The position numbers were made by a program, and so were the translations under genes. The notes under the pieces are model-generated. The model was not told the DNA's origin, did not search any database, and was given only the letters and a program-made list of their open reading frames with translations. DNA of 43,674 bases from a virus. How positions within the stretch are numbered: position 1 is the stretch's first letter; each line of letters starts with the position of its first letter. This document shows positions 26,548 through 27,920 of this stretch, piece by piece. The DNA is taken from the IMG/VR virus record IMGVR_UViG_3300045988_068477, positions 1 to 43,674 of that record; one strand, written 5' to 3'.

Positions 26548-26571
26548 AAAAAAGCCGCCCATAAGGGCGGC
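26548..26571 (-). terminator. cassette A: minus-strand intrinsic terminator
   Basis: GCCGCCC-ATAA-GGGCGGC (26554-26571). A run of six A on the plus strand (26548-26553) gives a U-run only on the minus strand. Confidence 0.7.
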
Positions 26572-26576
26572 GGCAA

Positions 26577-26605
26577 TTGACAAAAAGCGGCGCTATTGGT
26601 AGAAT
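26577..26605 (+). promoter_or_regulatory. cassette A: plus promoter TTGACA-17-TAGAAT
   Basis: The sequence reads TTGACAaaaagcggcgctattggTAGAAT. Confidence 0.75.
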
Positions 26606-26667
26606 GACGATGGCGCTGCCATAACGGTAGGCGGTTCGGCCACTACCCCTGAAAGGGGGTGAGGCCC

Positions 26668-26745
26668 ATGCGGATCACATTACATATCGGGCGGTTCACC
26701 GTTACGATTATTGTGAAAAGCAGAAACCGCCACTCGGCCAAGTGA
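26668..26745 (+). CDS. micro-ORF, MRITLHIGRFTVTIIVKSRNRHSAK (25 aa)
   Basis: GGGGGTGAGG SD lies 4-13 nt upstream. The paralog at 27725..27802 differs mostly at synonymous third positions. Confidence 0.55.
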   Translation: MRITLHIGRFTVTIIVKSRNRHSAK

Positions 26746-26816
26746 CGGTTTCTATAGCTTCGCTATTCAACTGACACAGGGCTGAACCGCTTATCGGCAG
26801 CGCCCTATCTATTCTT

Positions 26817-26844
26817 ATTATAGCCAACCCAGCCGCTTTGTCAA
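26817..26844 (-). promoter_or_regulatory. cassette A: minus promoter TTGACA-16-TATAAT
   Basis: Minus-strand reading is TTGACAaagcggctgggttggcTATAAT. The -35 sits inside the plus terminator hairpin. Confidence 0.75.
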
Positions 26845-26865
26845 GTATGGACAGGGCGGTTTTTT
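26833..26865 (+). terminator. cassette A: plus-strand intrinsic terminator
   Basis: CCGCTTTGTC pairs with GACAGGGCGG (10 bp including two G.U pairs, so it is plus-specific), followed by TTTTTT. Confidence 0.75.
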
Positions 26866-26888
26866 GCCGTCCGGAAAGGAGGCCCAAT

Positions 26889-27206
26889 ATGCTAATCATT
26901 CAAATTGCAGCGCTGGAATCGGGTCAGCATCCAATCCAGAGCCAGAGCGGGCGGAAAACCTGCTGGCTGCCTGGCTACATAGAGGTGCCCGGCCACCTGG
27001 AGCGGGAGGTATGGGCGTGCCTTGGCTGGTGCGACCTGACCATTGAGGGCGGGAAACTGACCGGCATCACGCCCGGCACCATCCCGGAGCTGGAGCCTGC
27101 GCCGGAGCCTGAGCCCACGGCCCAGGAGGACAACGACACCATGCTGGTAGATCACGAATACAGACTGACCTTGATGGAATTGGGGGTGACGAGTGATGCT
27201 GTATAG
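26889..27206 (+). CDS. hypothetical protein (105 aa)
   Basis: AGGAGG SD. The C-terminal half has a PELEPAPEPEP linker. It lies upstream of the XkdX-like gene. Confidence 0.65.
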   Translation: MLIIQIAALESGQHPIQSQSGRKTCWLPGYIEVPGHLEREVWACLGWCDLTIEGGKLTGITPGTIPELEPAPEPEPTAQEDNDTMLVDHEYRLTLMELGVTSDAV

Positions 27207-27333
27207 GACACTGAAGCGCATGATTGAGCGCGGCCAGACTGCCGGAATGGAAGAGAAATTGGACATCTTTTACGCAGCGGACAAGCTGACCGAAGCGGAG
27301 TATACCGAGCTGACGGGCATGTTGGTAAAATGA
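27196..27333 (+). CDS. XkdX-like small protein (45 aa)
   Basis: MLYRTLKRMIERGQTAGMEEKLDIFYAADKLTEAEYTELTGML resembles the PBSX XkdX family. It falls below the ORF-track cutoff. Confidence 0.55.
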   Translation: MLYRTLKRMIERGQTAGMEEKLDIFYAADKLTEAEYTELTGMLVK

Positions 27334-27351
27334 GAAAGGAAGTCATTGACT

Positions 27352-27612
27352 ATGGAAATCAAAACGATGAGCTTTACGAACCCCTATTACAAGAAGGAGT
27401 GGCAGGAGTGGGTGCCCGGCTTTGAGGGCAAGGTGCGCTACCGGGAGGGTACATACACCCTGCAGGGAGACGGGACCAAGGTCGTGTATGACGGCGCGAC
27501 CAACTACATGGGCAGGGTGCGGCCTGACGGCAGCTTTACCAGCAACGACAGCCAGGGCGCGGCCCCGGACGAGTATGAGCTGACCTTTCTGCGGGCGGCA
27601 AAGGAAGCATAA
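27352..27612 (+). CDS. hypothetical protein (86 aa)
   Basis: ATG 27352 follows AAAGGAAG. I recognise no family. Confidence 0.6.
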   Translation: MEIKTMSFTNPYYKKEWQEWVPGFEGKVRYREGTYTLQGDGTKVVYDGATNYMGRVRPDGSFTSNDSQGAAPDEYELTFLRAAKEA

Positions 27613-27633
27613 AAAAAGCCGCCTAATGGCGGC
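27611..27633 (-). terminator. cassette B: minus-strand intrinsic terminator
   Basis: GCCGCC-TAAT-GGCGGC (27618-27633), preceded on the plus strand by seven A. Confidence 0.7.
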
Positions 27634-27635
27634 AA

Positions 27636-27664
27636 TTGACGAAACGCGGCGCACGTGGTAAGAT
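27636..27664 (+). promoter_or_regulatory. cassette B: plus promoter TTGACG-17-TAAGAT
   Basis: The sequence reads TTGACGaaacgcggcgcacgtggTAAGAT. Confidence 0.7.
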
Positions 27665-27724
27665 GATTGCGGCGCTGCACAAGAGGCAGGCGGTTGGCCA
27701 CACTCCCGGAAGGGAGGTGAGGCC

Positions 27725-27802
27725 ATGCGGATTACGTTACATATTGGGCCTTTCACGGTTACGATTGTCGTAAAAAGCAGAAACCGCCACCCTGGCCGGT
27801 GA
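27725..27802 (+). CDS. micro-ORF, MRITLHIGPFTVTIVVKSRNRHPGR (25 aa)
   Basis: GGGAGGTGAGG SD. Paralog of 26668..26745. Confidence 0.55.
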   Translation: MRITLHIGPFTVTIVVKSRNRHPGR

Positions 27803-27874
27803 CGGTTTCCATAGCTTTGCTATAAACTGTTTCCATCTGGGCTAACCGCTTGTCGCAGCGCCCTTTCTATCTGA

Positions 27875-27902
27875 ATTATACCACTTGCCTCCGTTTTGTC
27901 AA
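27875..27902 (-). promoter_or_regulatory. cassette B: minus promoter TTGACA-16-TATAAT
   Basis: Minus-strand reading is TTGACAaaacggaggcaagtggTATAAT. Confidence 0.75.
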
Positions 27903-27920
27903 GAACGGGGGTGTTTTTAT
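27888..27920 (+). terminator. cassette B: plus-strand intrinsic terminator
   Basis: CTCCGTT (27889-27895) pairs with AACGGGG (27904-27910), followed by TGTTTTTATTT. Confidence 0.7.

What the first reader, a model, noticed from the sequence alone, without database searches (positions are those of the whole stretch)
26548..27920. Two paralogous ~0.3-kb non-coding cassettes bracket the three genes before the endolysin, with compensatory changes in RNA helices
Cassette A (26548-26865) and cassette B (27611-27920) are collinear and roughly three-quarters identical by eye; I did not compute an exact value. Both have the same layout, in order: hairpin, promoter, a 5' strand of a closing helix, a GNRA-capped hairpin, a 25-codon ORF, a conserved hairpin AGAAACCG-C-CAC...GTG-A-CGGTTTC, the small hairpin ATAGC-TTY-GCTAT, the 3' strand of the closing helix, and a terminator. 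Differences between the copies preserve pairing. The outer helix is 9 bp in A (GGCGCTGCC/GGCAGCGCC) and 8 bp in B (GGCGCTGC/GCAGCGCC), so both partners of one pair are missing together. The next segment is ATAA/TTAT in A and ACAA/TTGT in B, a T:A to C:G change. The capped hairpin has a C:G pair in A where B has T:A, and both loops stay GNRA (GAAA versus GGAA). By contrast, the loop of the AGAAACCG hairpin is free to vary (TCGGCCAA versus CCTGGCCG). G.U pairs favour the plus-strand fold. I recognise no Rfam family here.
Basis: seen in the sequence. Interest (0 to 1): 0.85.

Follow-up and report, generated by a model that had tools for sequence, protein, structure and literature searches.

The report
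Unannotated toxin–antitoxin-like small-gene/antisense-RNA cassettes

Summary
Cassettes A (26548-26865) and B (27611-27920) are collinear and 75.9% identical, and no Rfam family matches. In 123 non-redundant homologues from Oscillospiraceae genomes and gut phages, the 5'–3' closing helix covaries strongly and favours the plus strand.

The 25-codon ORF varies about five times more at third codon positions than at first or second, so it is under coding selection. Each cassette also carries a convergent minus-strand promoter, a perfect TTGACA-16-TATAAT. The "conserved hairpin" AGAAACCG…CGGTTTC is more stable on the minus strand and is followed there by a U-run. It is the terminator of a predicted ~97-nt antisense sRNA overlapping the ORF 3' end and 3' UTR.

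The sequestered ribosome-binding site, the long-distance 5'–3' helix, the stronger antisense promoter, the tandem and solo-sRNA copies and the prophage locations all fit a type I toxin–antitoxin module. It belongs to no known family. The peptide has no predicted transmembrane helix and is predicted, at moderate confidence, to form a cationic β-hairpin. Toxicity and transcripts are untested.

Verdict: a new variant of a known kind, of moderate interest.

The parts
26548..26571 (-). Cassette A: distal minus-strand terminator-like hairpin GCCGCCC-TTAT-GGGCGGC (26571→26554), followed on the minus strand by a T-run (26553→26548).
   Evidence: Terminator scan; sequence. On the plus strand it is followed by GGCAATTG, which is not U-rich. 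It is present only in the homologues with a TTGACA-type plus promoter.
26577..26605 (+). Cassette A: plus-strand promoter TTGACA-17-TAGAAT with an extended -10 TG (11/12). It is predicted to start the peptide mRNA at about 26612.
   Evidence: Family-wide, the plus promoter scores a mean of 9.0/12, against at most 9 in shuffles. The TSS is inferred, not measured.
26612..26865 (+). Cassette A: predicted peptide (putative toxin) mRNA, about 254 nt.
   Evidence: MFE -112.3 kcal/mol, z = -6.3. The ends are inferred from the promoter and terminator.
26612..26641 (+). Cassette A: 5' strand of the long-distance 5'–3' helix. It comprises GGCGCTGCC 26612-26620, ATAA 26621-26624 and GCGGTTCGGCC 26631-26641.
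   Evidence: Covariation is seen in all 8 outer pairs and in 6 of 10 inner pairs.
26645..26664 (+). Cassette A: GAAA-capped anti-SD/SD hairpin ACCCCT-GAAA-GGGGGT (26645-26660). It sequesters the 5' half of the ribosome-binding site AAAGGGGGTGAGG (26652-26664).
   Evidence: Folds. One pair covaries, CG:82 / UA:15. The SD-like sequence lies 3-5 nt before the start codon in 113 of 123 homologues.
26668..26745 (+). Cassette A: ORF of 25 codons plus stop, encoding MRITLHIGRFTVTIIVKSRNRHSAK.
   Evidence: third-position variation about 5× that of first or second. AF2 predicts a β-hairpin at pLDDT 69.8.
26712..26810 (-). Cassette A: predicted antisense sRNA of about 97-99 nt. It has a 5' stem-loop, an AU-rich spacer, a 14-bp terminator hairpin and the tail CUGCUUUUC. 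It is complementary to the last 8 codons, the 3' UTR and the 3' strand of the long-distance helix.
   Evidence: Promoter and terminator scans. Fold -42.9 kcal/mol, z = -4.8. The ends are inferred.
26722..26753 (-). Cassette A: conserved hairpin AGAAACCGCCAC-TCGGCCAA-GTGACGGTTTCT. On the minus strand it is a perfect 14-bp stem (with one G·U) followed by a U-run, and is the sRNA terminator. On the plus strand it encodes the peptide tail RNRHSAK and the stop codon.
   Evidence: minus more stable in 115/115; -21.0 versus -14.8 kcal/mol; top pair UA:82 / CG:40.
26754..26766 (+). Cassette A: small hairpin ATAGC-TTC-GCTAT. It is shared with B but is not family-wide.
   Evidence: 52 of 117 homologues instead have TTTC…GAAA.
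26780..26804 (+). Cassette A: 3' strand of the long-distance helix. It comprises GGCTGAACCGC 26780-26790, TTAT 26791-26794 and GGCAGCGCC 26796-26804.
26817..26844 (-). Cassette A: minus-strand promoter TTGACA-16-TATAAT, 12/12.
   Evidence: It scores 12/12 in 104 of 122 homologues.
26833..26865 (+). Cassette A: plus-strand intrinsic terminator CCGCTTTGTC…GACAGGGCGG plus TTTTTT. Its 5' arm and loop contain the minus -35.
   Evidence: Fold; sequence.
27611..27633 (-). Cassette B: distal minus-strand terminator-like hairpin GCCGCC-ATTA-GGCGGC followed by a T-run.
27636..27664 (+). Cassette B: plus-strand promoter TTGACG-17-TAAGAT with TG (9/12).
27671..27918 (+). Cassette B: predicted peptide mRNA. 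The 5' strand of the long-distance helix is at 27671-27699 and the 3' strand at 27840-27862. The anti-SD/SD hairpin CTCCC-GGAA-GGGAG is at 27703-27716. The small hairpin is at 27811-27823. The terminator is at 27886-27918.
   Evidence: MFE -105 kcal/mol, z = -5.0; terminator scan.
27725..27802 (+). Cassette B: ORF of 25 codons plus stop, encoding MRITLHIGPFTVTIVVKSRNRHPGR.
27769..27868 (-). Cassette B: predicted antisense sRNA of about 100 nt, with its terminator hairpin at 27779-27810 (loop CCTGGCCG on the plus strand) and a U-run.
   Evidence: terminator 27811→27778. Fold -40.7 kcal/mol, z = -4.4.
27875..27902 (-). Cassette B: minus-strand promoter TTGACA-16-TATAAT, 12/12, with TG.

Best explanation
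Each cassette is a self-contained sense/antisense gene pair built like a type I toxin–antitoxin module.

Plus strand: a moderate σ70-type promoter is predicted to make an mRNA of about 250 nt. Its first nucleotides pair with a segment about 170 nt downstream in a long-distance 5'–3' helix of about 25-30 bp. Its strong ribosome-binding site is half-buried in a GNRA-capped anti-SD hairpin. The mRNA encodes a 25-residue, strongly basic peptide. That peptide is predicted to form a 7+7-residue amphipathic β-hairpin with a disordered K-S-R-N-R-H tail.

Minus strand: a perfect consensus promoter just beyond the helix is predicted to make an sRNA of about 97 nt. It ends at a terminator hairpin lying inside the last codons of the ORF. 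The sRNA is fully complementary to the ORF 3' end, the 3' UTR and the 3' strand of the long-distance helix.

Inferred mechanism:
- The folded mRNA is stable and poorly translated.
- The sRNA, made in excess, pairs with the mRNA. Pairing probably starts at the complementary hairpin loops.
- Pairing displaces the mRNA 5' end from the helix and creates a long duplex, which leads to RNase III or 5'-exonuclease decay and no peptide.
- When sRNA supply falls, the peptide is made and harms the cell. Supply could fall on loss of the element, or when late phage transcription runs into the antisense promoter.

Shown by sequence evidence: coding selection on the ORF, the covarying strand-specific helices, the convergent promoters and terminators, and the family's spread.

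Inferred only: the transcripts' existence and ends, the sRNA–mRNA interaction in vivo, toxicity, and biological role (element maintenance or phage defence).
For: - Convergent promoters and terminators are present in both copies.
- The minus promoter scores 12/12 in 104 of 122 non-redundant homologues. It beats the plus promoter in 106 of 122, the antitoxin-over-toxin asymmetry typical of type I TA.
- The conserved hairpin is more stable on the minus strand in 115/115 and is followed there by GCUUUU.
- The ORF is under coding selection: entropy 0.22/0.17/1.09 per codon position over 68 distinct 25-codon ORFs. The 27-, 30- and 31-residue subtypes keep the same pattern.
- Long-distance helix: each 5' strand binds its own 3' strand better than others' in 123/123 (-40.4 versus -30.5 kcal/mol). 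The plus strand is better than the minus in 114/123. All 8 outer pairs show compensatory changes.
- The SD lies in a local hairpin in the MFE folds of both copies.
- Tandem arrays and solo sRNA units without an ORF exist. By contrast, ORFs without the antisense promoter are rare and look degenerate.
- Locations include prophage integrase, lysis and immunity regions as well as chromosomal intergenic sites.
- These features are the published hallmarks of type I TA loci: a small protein with a charged C-terminus, prophage location, a non-translatable primary transcript through an SD/anti-SD hairpin or a 5'–3' long-distance interaction, and, in Gram-positives, a 3'-overlapping antisense RNA (PMC6563280, PMC8594479, PMC6733600).
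Against: - No transcript, toxicity or neutralisation data exist.
- The peptide lacks the predicted transmembrane helix of typical type I toxins. The best 19-residue Kyte–Doolittle window among 94 variants is 1.48, below the 1.6 threshold.
- There is no similarity to any known toxin or antitoxin family in Rfam, Pfam, NCBIfam, PHROGs, PADLOC or PDB.
- The sRNA does not cover the ribosome-binding site, so control of translation would have to be indirect.
- The sRNA terminator's U-tract is interrupted (CUGCUUUU).
- Homologues were fished with the hairpin sequence, so its near-invariance is partly circular.
- A few intact ORFs lack an obvious antisense promoter (L153, L174, L205).
Confidence: 0.6

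Rival explanations
1. The module is a cis-antisense-regulated small-protein gene whose peptide is not a toxin. The peptide could be a regulatory or structural micro-protein, or a phage 'moron' product acting on a host or phage target by β-strand addition or nucleic-acid binding through its basic tail. The sRNA would simply tune its level.
For: - The anatomy is the same as in the best explanation.
- The peptide has no transmembrane helix and resembles no known toxin.
- It is predicted to be a soluble-looking cationic β-hairpin.
Against: - The extreme promoter asymmetry, the double translational lock, the tandem arrays, the solo antisense copies and the scattering across mobile and chromosomal sites are the signature of addiction-type modules rather than ordinary regulated genes.
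- No conserved partner gene lies nearby.
Confidence: 0.22
2. The minus-strand sRNA is the main product. It would be a trans-acting regulator carried by phages and chromosomes. The plus-strand RNA would act mainly as its cis-encoded sponge or decoy, with the peptide secondary.
For: - Solo sRNA units keep promoter, 5' stem-loop and terminator without any ORF.
- The minus promoter is the most conserved element of the cassette.
- The sRNA has an AU-rich, variable, single-stranded spacer of the kind often used as a seed.
Against: - The ORF is under clear purifying selection at the protein level.
- The sRNA's conserved 5' part is exactly the complement of the mRNA's helix strand.
- Orphan antitoxins are also common in true TA families.
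Confidence: 0.09
3. One reading: a plus-strand structured non-coding RNA of a new class (ribozyme-, riboswitch- or scaffold-like). The 25-codon ORF would be incidental.
For: - Strong covariation and plus-strand G·U bias in the closing helix.
- A GNRA-capped hairpin is present in most members.
- No Rfam match.
Against: - Codon-position periodicity and conservation of the peptide across subtypes with different nucleotides.
- A strong SD at the right distance from the start codon.
- The best-conserved hairpin is optimised for the other strand.
- There is no conserved unpaired core or multi-helix junction. The conserved unpaired stretches are the SD and the ORF.
Confidence: 0.04
4. A DNA-level repeat. 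It could be a recombination or module-boundary sequence, a bidirectional terminator cassette, or a miniature mobile element. On this reading it brackets the three small genes so that they can be exchanged or deleted.
For: - Two direct repeats flank three genes, and each carries terminators on both strands.
- The family occurs in many unrelated contexts.
Against: - Strand-specific G·U patterns, compensatory base-pair changes and codon periodicity are RNA- and protein-level signals.
- The two copies are only 76% identical and are not each other's closest relatives, so they are poor recombination substrates.
- Related phages carry a single copy (L006).
- I noticed no terminal inverted repeats or target-site duplications in the aligned copies, but I did not search for them.
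Confidence: 0.03

Closest known systems
Gram-positive type I TA systems with a 3'-overlapping antitoxin: txpA/RatA, bsrG/SR4, bsrE/SR5 and yonT/SR6 of Bacillus subtilis prophages, and the CD0956.2/RCd10-type pairs of Clostridioides difficile prophages
   Same: - Convergent toxin mRNA and antisense sRNA overlapping at the 3' end, including the end of the ORF.
- A small protein with a charged C-terminus.
- Prophage location and multiple paralogues per genome.
- A stronger antitoxin promoter.
- Expected action through duplex formation and RNase-mediated decay.
Sources: PMC8594479; PMC6563280; established knowledge for RatA and SR4.
   Different: - No sequence or covariance-model similarity.
- The peptide is shorter (25-31 aa) and has no transmembrane helix, whereas those toxins have one.
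- The mRNA here additionally has a long 5'–3' helix.
- The host clade, Oscillospiraceae, has no described type I TA that I could find.
hok/sok (Enterobacteria) and aapA/IsoA (Helicobacter): toxin mRNAs locked by a 5'–3' long-distance interaction
   Same: - The primary transcript is folded by pairing of its very 5' end with a 3' segment.
- The SD is sequestered by an anti-SD.
- The fold is maintained by covariation.
- The antisense RNA is made from a strong promoter.
Source: PMC6733600.
   Different: - In those systems the antisense RNA targets the 5' or translation-initiation region, and activation needs 3' trimming. Here the sRNA targets the 3' end, including the 3' strand of the helix itself.
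- The 3' strand here lies about 60 nt upstream of the transcript end.
- There is no mok-like leader ORF.
- The organisms are Gram-negative.
- There is no sequence similarity.
Phage 'morons': autonomous promoter–gene–terminator units inserted in late operons
   Same: - Each cassette is a free-standing transcription unit with its own promoter and terminator.
- Each is inserted between late genes (tail fibre / small genes / endolysin) of a temperate phage.
- Homologues often lie next to integrase or immunity genes.
   Different: - Morons are defined by position, not by mechanism.
- This unit also occurs outside prophages, next to housekeeping genes.
- It carries an antisense partner.
Cationic β-hairpin membrane-active peptides, and the transmembrane β-hairpins of β-pore-forming toxins. 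This is a resemblance recalled from general knowledge, not a test.
   Same: - Two strands of about 7 residues with alternating hydrophobic and polar side chains, joined by a tight variable turn.
- High net positive charge, +4 to +7.
   Different: - No disulfides, no secretion signal, and an intracellular origin.
- No homology.
- The hairpin comes only from a moderate-confidence single-sequence model, and membrane activity is untested.

Membership tests
Type I toxin–antitoxin systems (class) | A small ORF (usually under 60 aa) that is really protein-coding | tested here: met
   The ORF is 25-31 codons. Entropy at codon positions 1/2/3 is 0.22/0.17/1.09 in 68 distinct ORFs, and the subtypes keep the peptide pattern.
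Type I toxin–antitoxin systems (class) | A cis-encoded antisense sRNA with its own promoter and terminator, complementary to the toxin mRNA | tested here: met
   This is sequence-level evidence only. The minus promoter scores 12/12 in 104 of 122 homologues. The terminator hairpin is more stable on the minus strand in 115/115 and is followed by a U-run. The transcripts themselves have not been observed.
Type I toxin–antitoxin systems (class) | A toxin primary transcript folded to block translation, by an SD/anti-SD hairpin and/or a 5'–3' long-distance interaction | tested here: met
   Both features are present in the MFE folds of both copies. The long-distance helix covaries and is strand-specific. 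The effect on translation has not been measured.
Type I toxin–antitoxin systems (class) | A hydrophobic toxin with a predicted transmembrane helix | tested here: not met
   The maximum 19-residue Kyte–Doolittle mean among 94 variants is 1.48, below 1.6. The longest stretch free of charged residues and His is 7-10 residues in 93 of 94 variants. AF2 predicts a β-hairpin.
Type I toxin–antitoxin systems (class) | A cluster of charged residues at the toxin C-terminus | tested here: met
   The tail is K[SRG]RNRH[SP][AG][KR], and net charge is +4 to +7 in most variants. Part of this tail is dictated by the antisense terminator hairpin.
Type I toxin–antitoxin systems (class) | Toxicity on overexpression, and neutralisation by the cognate sRNA | not testable with these tools
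   This needs wet-lab induction and rescue experiments.
Type I toxin–antitoxin systems (class) | Typical genomic behaviour: prophage or mobile-element location, multiple or tandem copies, orphan antitoxins | tested here: met
   The window is a temperate phage. Fifteen loci lie next to an integrase. Tandem arrays occur in L137, L159, L151, L171 and L173. Solo sRNA units exist.
Known type I antitoxin, toxin-mRNA or other RNA families in Rfam 15 | A match to the family covariance model at the gathering score | tested here: not met
   cmscan of the whole window found only gut-2 RNA elsewhere. At E ≤ 10 on 26400-28000 it found only sub-threshold noise hits of 18 bits or less, none to a TA family.
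Known small-toxin or defence protein families (Pfam-A, NCBIfam, PHROGs, PADLOC, PDB sequences) | A profile or sequence match of the peptide | tested here: not met
   There were no significant hits. The best was PHROG E = 0.011 for one variant. The exact peptide occurs once, unnamed, among 15 billion proteins.
hok/sok family | Sok antisense to the mok/hok translation-initiation region, an overlapping mok leader ORF, a Hok transmembrane toxin, and 3' processing that activates the mRNA | tested here: not met
   The antisense RNA overlaps the 3' end, there is no overlapping leader ORF, and there is no transmembrane helix. Only the principle of a 5'–3' helix is shared. Processing is not testable here.

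The most novel reading that the evidence does not exclude
The peptide would be a new mechanistic class of type I toxin. It is a 25-residue cationic amphipathic β-hairpin that acts either by oligomerising into β-sheet or β-barrel-like membrane lesions, or on a non-membrane target through β-strand addition and its basic tail. It would not act as the usual single transmembrane helix.

The family, with its discrete hairpin-loop 'specificity types' and free-standing solo antisense genes, would work as a phage-versus-phage or phage-versus-host addiction and immunity system in gut Oscillospiraceae. Solo sRNAs would immunise cells against incoming toxin-carrying elements.
Probability: 0.2. Interest if true: 0.78.

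Novelty: new variant of a known kind. Interest (0 to 1): 0.55.

Why it matters
- Oscillospiraceae (Oscillibacter, Dysosmobacter, Lawsonibacter, Flavonifractor relatives, Vescimonas) are abundant gut commensals. I found no type I TA system described for them in the paper search.
- The module is present in at least 120 species-level genomes and dozens of gut phage contigs.
- It is invisible to annotation. The peptide is too short for gene callers, and no RNA model exists.
- It offers two ready-made candidate RNA families: the toxin mRNA fold and the antisense sRNA.
- It gives a clean natural example of one DNA stretch serving as both a peptide tail and the terminator of the opposite-strand RNA. 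Base-pair covariation there shows up as amino-acid covariation (HS·K ↔ HP·R).
- It is a candidate toxin that breaks the 'hydrophobic helix' rule used by bioinformatic screens for type I toxins.
- If functional, it bears on prophage maintenance, lysis control and phage defence in the gut microbiome.

Tried and rejected
- Rfam at gathering and relaxed thresholds found nothing for the cassettes.
- Pfam, NCBIfam, PHROGs, PADLOC and PDB sequence searches with six peptide variants found nothing significant.
- blastn of cassette A against 50,697 GenBank phage records found no match.
- A full-text search for peptide motifs found 0 papers. A search for type I toxins in Oscillospiraceae genera found nothing relevant.
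- The first 15-mer scan of viral contigs was mostly chance hits. Only about 43 of 120 loci were true homologues after blastn filtering.
- I tested whether the cassette is tied to lysis genes or to the three bracketed genes. It is not. Only 4-7 loci share those neighbours, and the contexts are diverse.
- I tested whether co-resident copies avoid identical hairpin loops, as a sign of specificity. The result is inconclusive: 4 of 21 pairs are identical against 11% expected.
- I tested whether the small ATAGC hairpin is a family feature. It is not; about one third of members have a hairpin there.
- The two copies are not a recent in-situ duplication. Each is only the other's tenth-closest relative.
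- A conserved minus-strand ORF is rejected. The minus ORFs in A and B are not collinear.
- The AF2 model came from a single sequence and needed five non-native N-terminal residues to reach 30 aa. Its confidence is moderate, so I use it only as supporting evidence.
They are illustrative only.

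
Full report

Yes. Reading 26300-28200 and aligning the two stretches shows two collinear direct repeats. 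Cassette A is 26548-26865 and cassette B is 27611-27920. Against a profile built from relatives, the two copies score E = 3.5e-64 and 3.5e-62 and are the only copies in the window.

The A/B differences it pointed to are correct:
- The outer helix is 9 bp in A and 8 bp in B.
- The next segment is ATAA/TTAT in A and ACAA/TTGT in B.
- The capped hairpin is ACCCCU-GAAA-GGGGGU in A and CUCCC-GGAA-GGGAG in B.
- The loop of the big hairpin varies.

The plus-strand transcripts predicted from each cassette fold far better than shuffles (-112.3 and -105 kcal/mol; z = -6.3 and -5.0). Both folds contain a 5'–3' helix of about 30 bp. Rfam has nothing for either cassette, at curated thresholds or at E ≤ 10.

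**2.

A promoter and terminator scan shows that each cassette has convergent promoters. On the plus strand these are TTGACA-17-TAGAAT in A (11/12) and TTGACG-17-TAAGAT in B (9/12). On the minus strand, just beyond the 3' strand of the closing helix, both have a perfect 12/12 TTGACA-16-TATAAT (26844→26817 and 27902→27875).

The "conserved hairpin" AGAAACCG-C-CAC…GTG-A-CGGTTTC has a C·A mismatch on the plus strand. On the minus strand that position is a U·G pair, which gives an uninterrupted 14-bp stem followed by CUGCUUUU(C/U), a terminator-like site. The minus strand is therefore predicted to make an sRNA of about 97-100 nt (A: about 26810→26712; B: about 27868→27769). This sRNA is antisense to the last eight codons of the ORF, the 3' UTR and the 3' strand of the closing helix.

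It is a second, distal minus-strand terminator.

**3. Relatives.**

A 15-mer from the hairpin pulled 120 viral contigs, of which 43 carry the whole cassette. Almost all are Oscillospiraceae or unclassified gut Clostridia. They include the isolates Lawsonibacter hominis, Pseudoflavonifractor capillosus, Evtepia gabavorous, Agathobaculum ammoniilyticum and Yanshouia hominis, and several have two to four tandem copies.

A profile search of all loci gave 195 hits and 133 distinct full-length cassettes. Of these, 123 share less than 93% identity and form alignment A2. Vescimonas fastidiosa MM35 has five matching places on its 861-kb replicon. The one examined is an unannotated gap between a LysR regulator gene and nadE.

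Caveat: because relatives were fished with the hairpin, its near-invariance is partly by construction, and more divergent members are under-sampled.

**4. The ORF is a real gene.**

In 68 distinct 25-codon ORFs, the per-site entropy over codons 2-17 is 0.22, 0.17 and 1.09 at codon positions 1, 2 and 3. The 27-codon subtype shows the same trend.

The peptide pattern is M[RP]IT[LI](T)[LF]H[IV][GLF]x[FYW]T[VI]TI[IR][VI]K[SRG]RNRH[SP][AG][KR]. It survives in subtypes whose nucleotides differ widely:
- MRITLHIGRFTVTIIVKSRNRHSAK
- MPITLTFHILRWTVTIRVKSRNRHSAK
- MPITITLHIFGYTVTIRIKGRNRHSAK
- MRLTITLTLRKLMFQFIIKSRNRHSAK
- MFWTLTFHIGRYSVSIRIMKLKSRNRHSHK

The single hypervariable position sits in the middle. 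A long SD (AAAGGGGGTGA, against the consensus AAAGGAGGTGA) lies 3-5 nt before the start codon in 113 of 123. "Non-coding cassette" is therefore wrong.

The peptide has net charge +4 to +7 and is 55% β-branched across residues 3-17. It has no 19-residue window reaching the Kyte–Doolittle transmembrane threshold in any of 94 variants (maximum 1.48). A single-sequence AlphaFold2 model of the window's peptide predicts two 7-residue strands joined by the G-R turn and a disordered tail. That model needed five extra upstream residues to reach the minimum length, and its mean pLDDT is 69.8 (80 in the centre), so it is supportive, not decisive.

No protein library or PDB sequence matches. The exact peptide occurs once, unnamed, among about 15 billion proteins.

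**5. The RNA structure is real and strand-specific.**

On A2, with a structure I specified from the window folds, 90.2% of cells form pairs, against 37-49% when partners are slid by 1-3 columns. There are 325 cells with changes on both sides, against 103 ± 8 in shuffles (0/500 reach the observed value). The covariation score is 0.245 against 0.151 (RNAalifold agrees for the outer helix).

Per element:
- All 8 outer closing-helix pairs show compensatory changes (5-20 sequences each). Examples are GGCACUGC/GCAGUGCC, GGACGCUGCG/CGCAGCGUCC and GGGCAUUGCC/GGCAAUGC.
- In the inner part (GCGGUUAGCC/GGCUAACCGC), 6 of 10 pairs covary.
- The anti-SD hairpin has one covarying pair (CG:82 / UA:15).
- An ORF-internal hairpin has one strongly covarying pair (GC:39 / CG:36 / AU:11), but it is otherwise inconsistent across subtypes.

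An alignment-independent test agrees. Each 5' strand duplexes better with its own 3' strand than with those of other members in 123/123 cases (-40.4 versus -30.5 kcal/mol). The plus-strand duplex beats its minus-strand mirror in 114/123. Conversely, the big hairpin is more stable on the minus strand in 115/115 (-21.0 versus -14.8 kcal/mol).

Its only variable pair, at the top of the stem (U-A in 82, C-G in 40), flips the peptide tail between HS·K and HP·R. The tail's amino-acid covariation is therefore driven by RNA.

The small ATAGC hairpin shared by A and B is not general. Instead, 52 of 117 members have a TTTC…GAAA pairing option next to the terminator stem, against 7.9 expected.

**6. Promoters across the family.**

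The minus promoter scores 12/12 in 104 of 122 members (TTGACA in 116 of 123, TATAAT in 108 of 123, spacing 16-18). The plus promoter averages 9.0/12, often with an extended -10 TG. The minus promoter beats the plus in 106 of 122.

About 20 loci carry solo antisense units: promoter, 5' stem-loop and terminator, but no ORF or 5' UTR. Five of these lie directly behind a full cassette. Full ORFs without an antisense promoter are rare and mostly look degenerate.

**7. Context.**

The window is a temperate siphovirus-like phage or prophage, with terminase, tape measure, amidase endolysin, holin and integrase. Cassette A follows the 601-aa tail-fibre-position gene (no PHROG match). Cassette B precedes the endolysin. 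The three genes between them are small phage proteins of unknown function (PHROGs 22773 and 2310).

Elsewhere the cassette lies next to phage integrases (15 loci), an ImmA/IrrE peptidase, tail-fibre-like proteins, SLH surface proteins, a response regulator and methionine synthase. It also lies next to housekeeping genes in Vescimonas. Only a handful of loci share the window's neighbours.

A and B are each the other's tenth-closest relative among 122. The related phage contig L006 has a single copy, near its p46 and endolysin homologues. The "bracketing" is thus best read as two independent members of a mobile family sitting in adjacent intergenic gaps. It is not a functional frame around the three genes.

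**8. Most likely mechanism.**

Steps (a) to (c) are supported by sequence evidence. Step (d) is inference.

(a) The plus mRNA is made at moderate level. Its very 5' end is locked into the long-distance helix. Its SD is half-buried in a GNRA-capped anti-SD hairpin.

(b) The sRNA is made from a consensus promoter. Its 5' part has nearly the same sequence as the mRNA's 5' strand, because both are complementary to the same 3' segment. It can therefore compete for that segment.

(c) The two RNAs carry perfectly complementary hairpin loops, which are a plausible initiation site.

(d) Pairing yields a duplex of about 97 bp and frees the mRNA 5' end. This would lead to decay by RNase III and 5'-exonuclease, and possibly to transcriptional interference between the convergent promoters. 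Without the sRNA, the peptide is made and is harmful.

This is the logic of Gram-positive 3'-overlap type I TA pairs (txpA/RatA, bsrG/SR4; established knowledge; PMC8594479; PMC6563280). It is combined with the 5'–3' long-distance lock known from hok and aapA mRNAs (PMC6733600). I put 0.6 on a true toxin–antitoxin function and about 0.9 on the sense/antisense small-gene architecture.

**9. Comparison with what is known, and novelty.**

The module meets the RNA-level and genomic hallmarks of type I TA systems. It fails one usual protein hallmark, the transmembrane helix. It matches no known family in Rfam, Pfam, NCBIfam, PHROGs or PADLOC, and no paper in the library mentions its peptide motifs.

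I therefore file it as working like a type I TA system. It is a new family with an atypical peptide, hence "new variant of a known kind".

Interest is moderate (0.55). New type I families are found regularly. This one, however, is widespread in an important and poorly studied gut clade and its phages, is entirely unannotated, has unusually clean covariation, shows dual coding of peptide tail and antisense terminator, and carries a peptide that challenges how such toxins are searched for.

Noticed in passing
window 13600-13646 (+): A full-length match to the Rfam family gut-2 RNA (RF02990): 53.9 bits against a gathering score of 39.8, E = 1.3e-08. It lies inside the structural-gene region of the phage.
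   Followed up: no
L206:7211-7363, L137:1472-1601, L139:3127-3269, L223:6692-6841, L159:5713-5851, L136:3012-3135, L129:7044-7195, L214:3435-3554; and directly behind a full cassette in L149, L124, L165, L168, L202: Solo antisense-sRNA units: minus promoter, 5' stem-loop and AGAAACCG terminator hairpin, but no peptide ORF or 5' UTR. They are candidate orphan antitoxins. In L149 and L165 the solo copy has the same hairpin loop as the neighbouring full cassette.
   Followed up: partly
L222:5770-5839, L179:3790-3877, L183:6561-6630: A probable sister family. It has the same promoter and 5' part (GGGCTGACCGC…GGCAGCGCC, ATTATA…TTGTCAAG) but a different terminator hairpin (TTGACCGCTCGGCTG…CCCAAGCGGTCAA). 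That hairpin would encode a different peptide tail.
   Followed up: no
window 26734-26741 and 27791-27798; alignment A2 columns 206/213: The loop of the big hairpin comes in discrete types: TCGGCCAA 36, TCTGCCAA 30, CCTGGCCG 26, TCGGCAAA 16, TCTGGCAA 15, CCCGGCAG 11, and others. The closing U-A↔C-G switch changes the peptide tail from HS·K to HP·R, so amino-acid covariation is caused by RNA pairing. A and B carry different loop types, which may be specificity determinants.
   Followed up: partly
alignment A2, just 3' of GTGACGGTTTC (window 26754-26775 region): In 52 of 117 homologues a GAAA lies 2-18 nt after the hairpin's TTTC, against 7.9 expected from shuffles. This allows an alternative small hairpin that competes with the base of the terminator stem. 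A and B instead have ATAGC/GCTAT.
   Followed up: partly
L241 (Vescimonas fastidiosa MM35 pMM35_01, NZ_AP023416.1 309157-309396): A cultured, RefSeq-annotated genome has five matching places on one 861-kb replicon. The place examined lies in an unannotated gap between a LysR regulator gene and nadE. This makes it a convenient organism for experiments.
   Followed up: partly
window 26833-26865 and 27886-27918, upstream of the endolysin gene (27921-29342): Both cassettes place plus-strand intrinsic terminators inside the late region between the tail-fibre gene and the lysis genes. Late transcription must read through them, or lysis genes need their own start. Late read-through would also collide with the antisense promoters.
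   Followed up: no
alignment, upstream of the closing helix (e.g. L097, L039, L082, L029, L111): Some members have an extra small 5' hairpin between the plus promoter and the closing helix. There are also two plus-promoter types: TTGACA…TAnAAT, and TTGCTT…TGnTATTCT.
   Followed up: no
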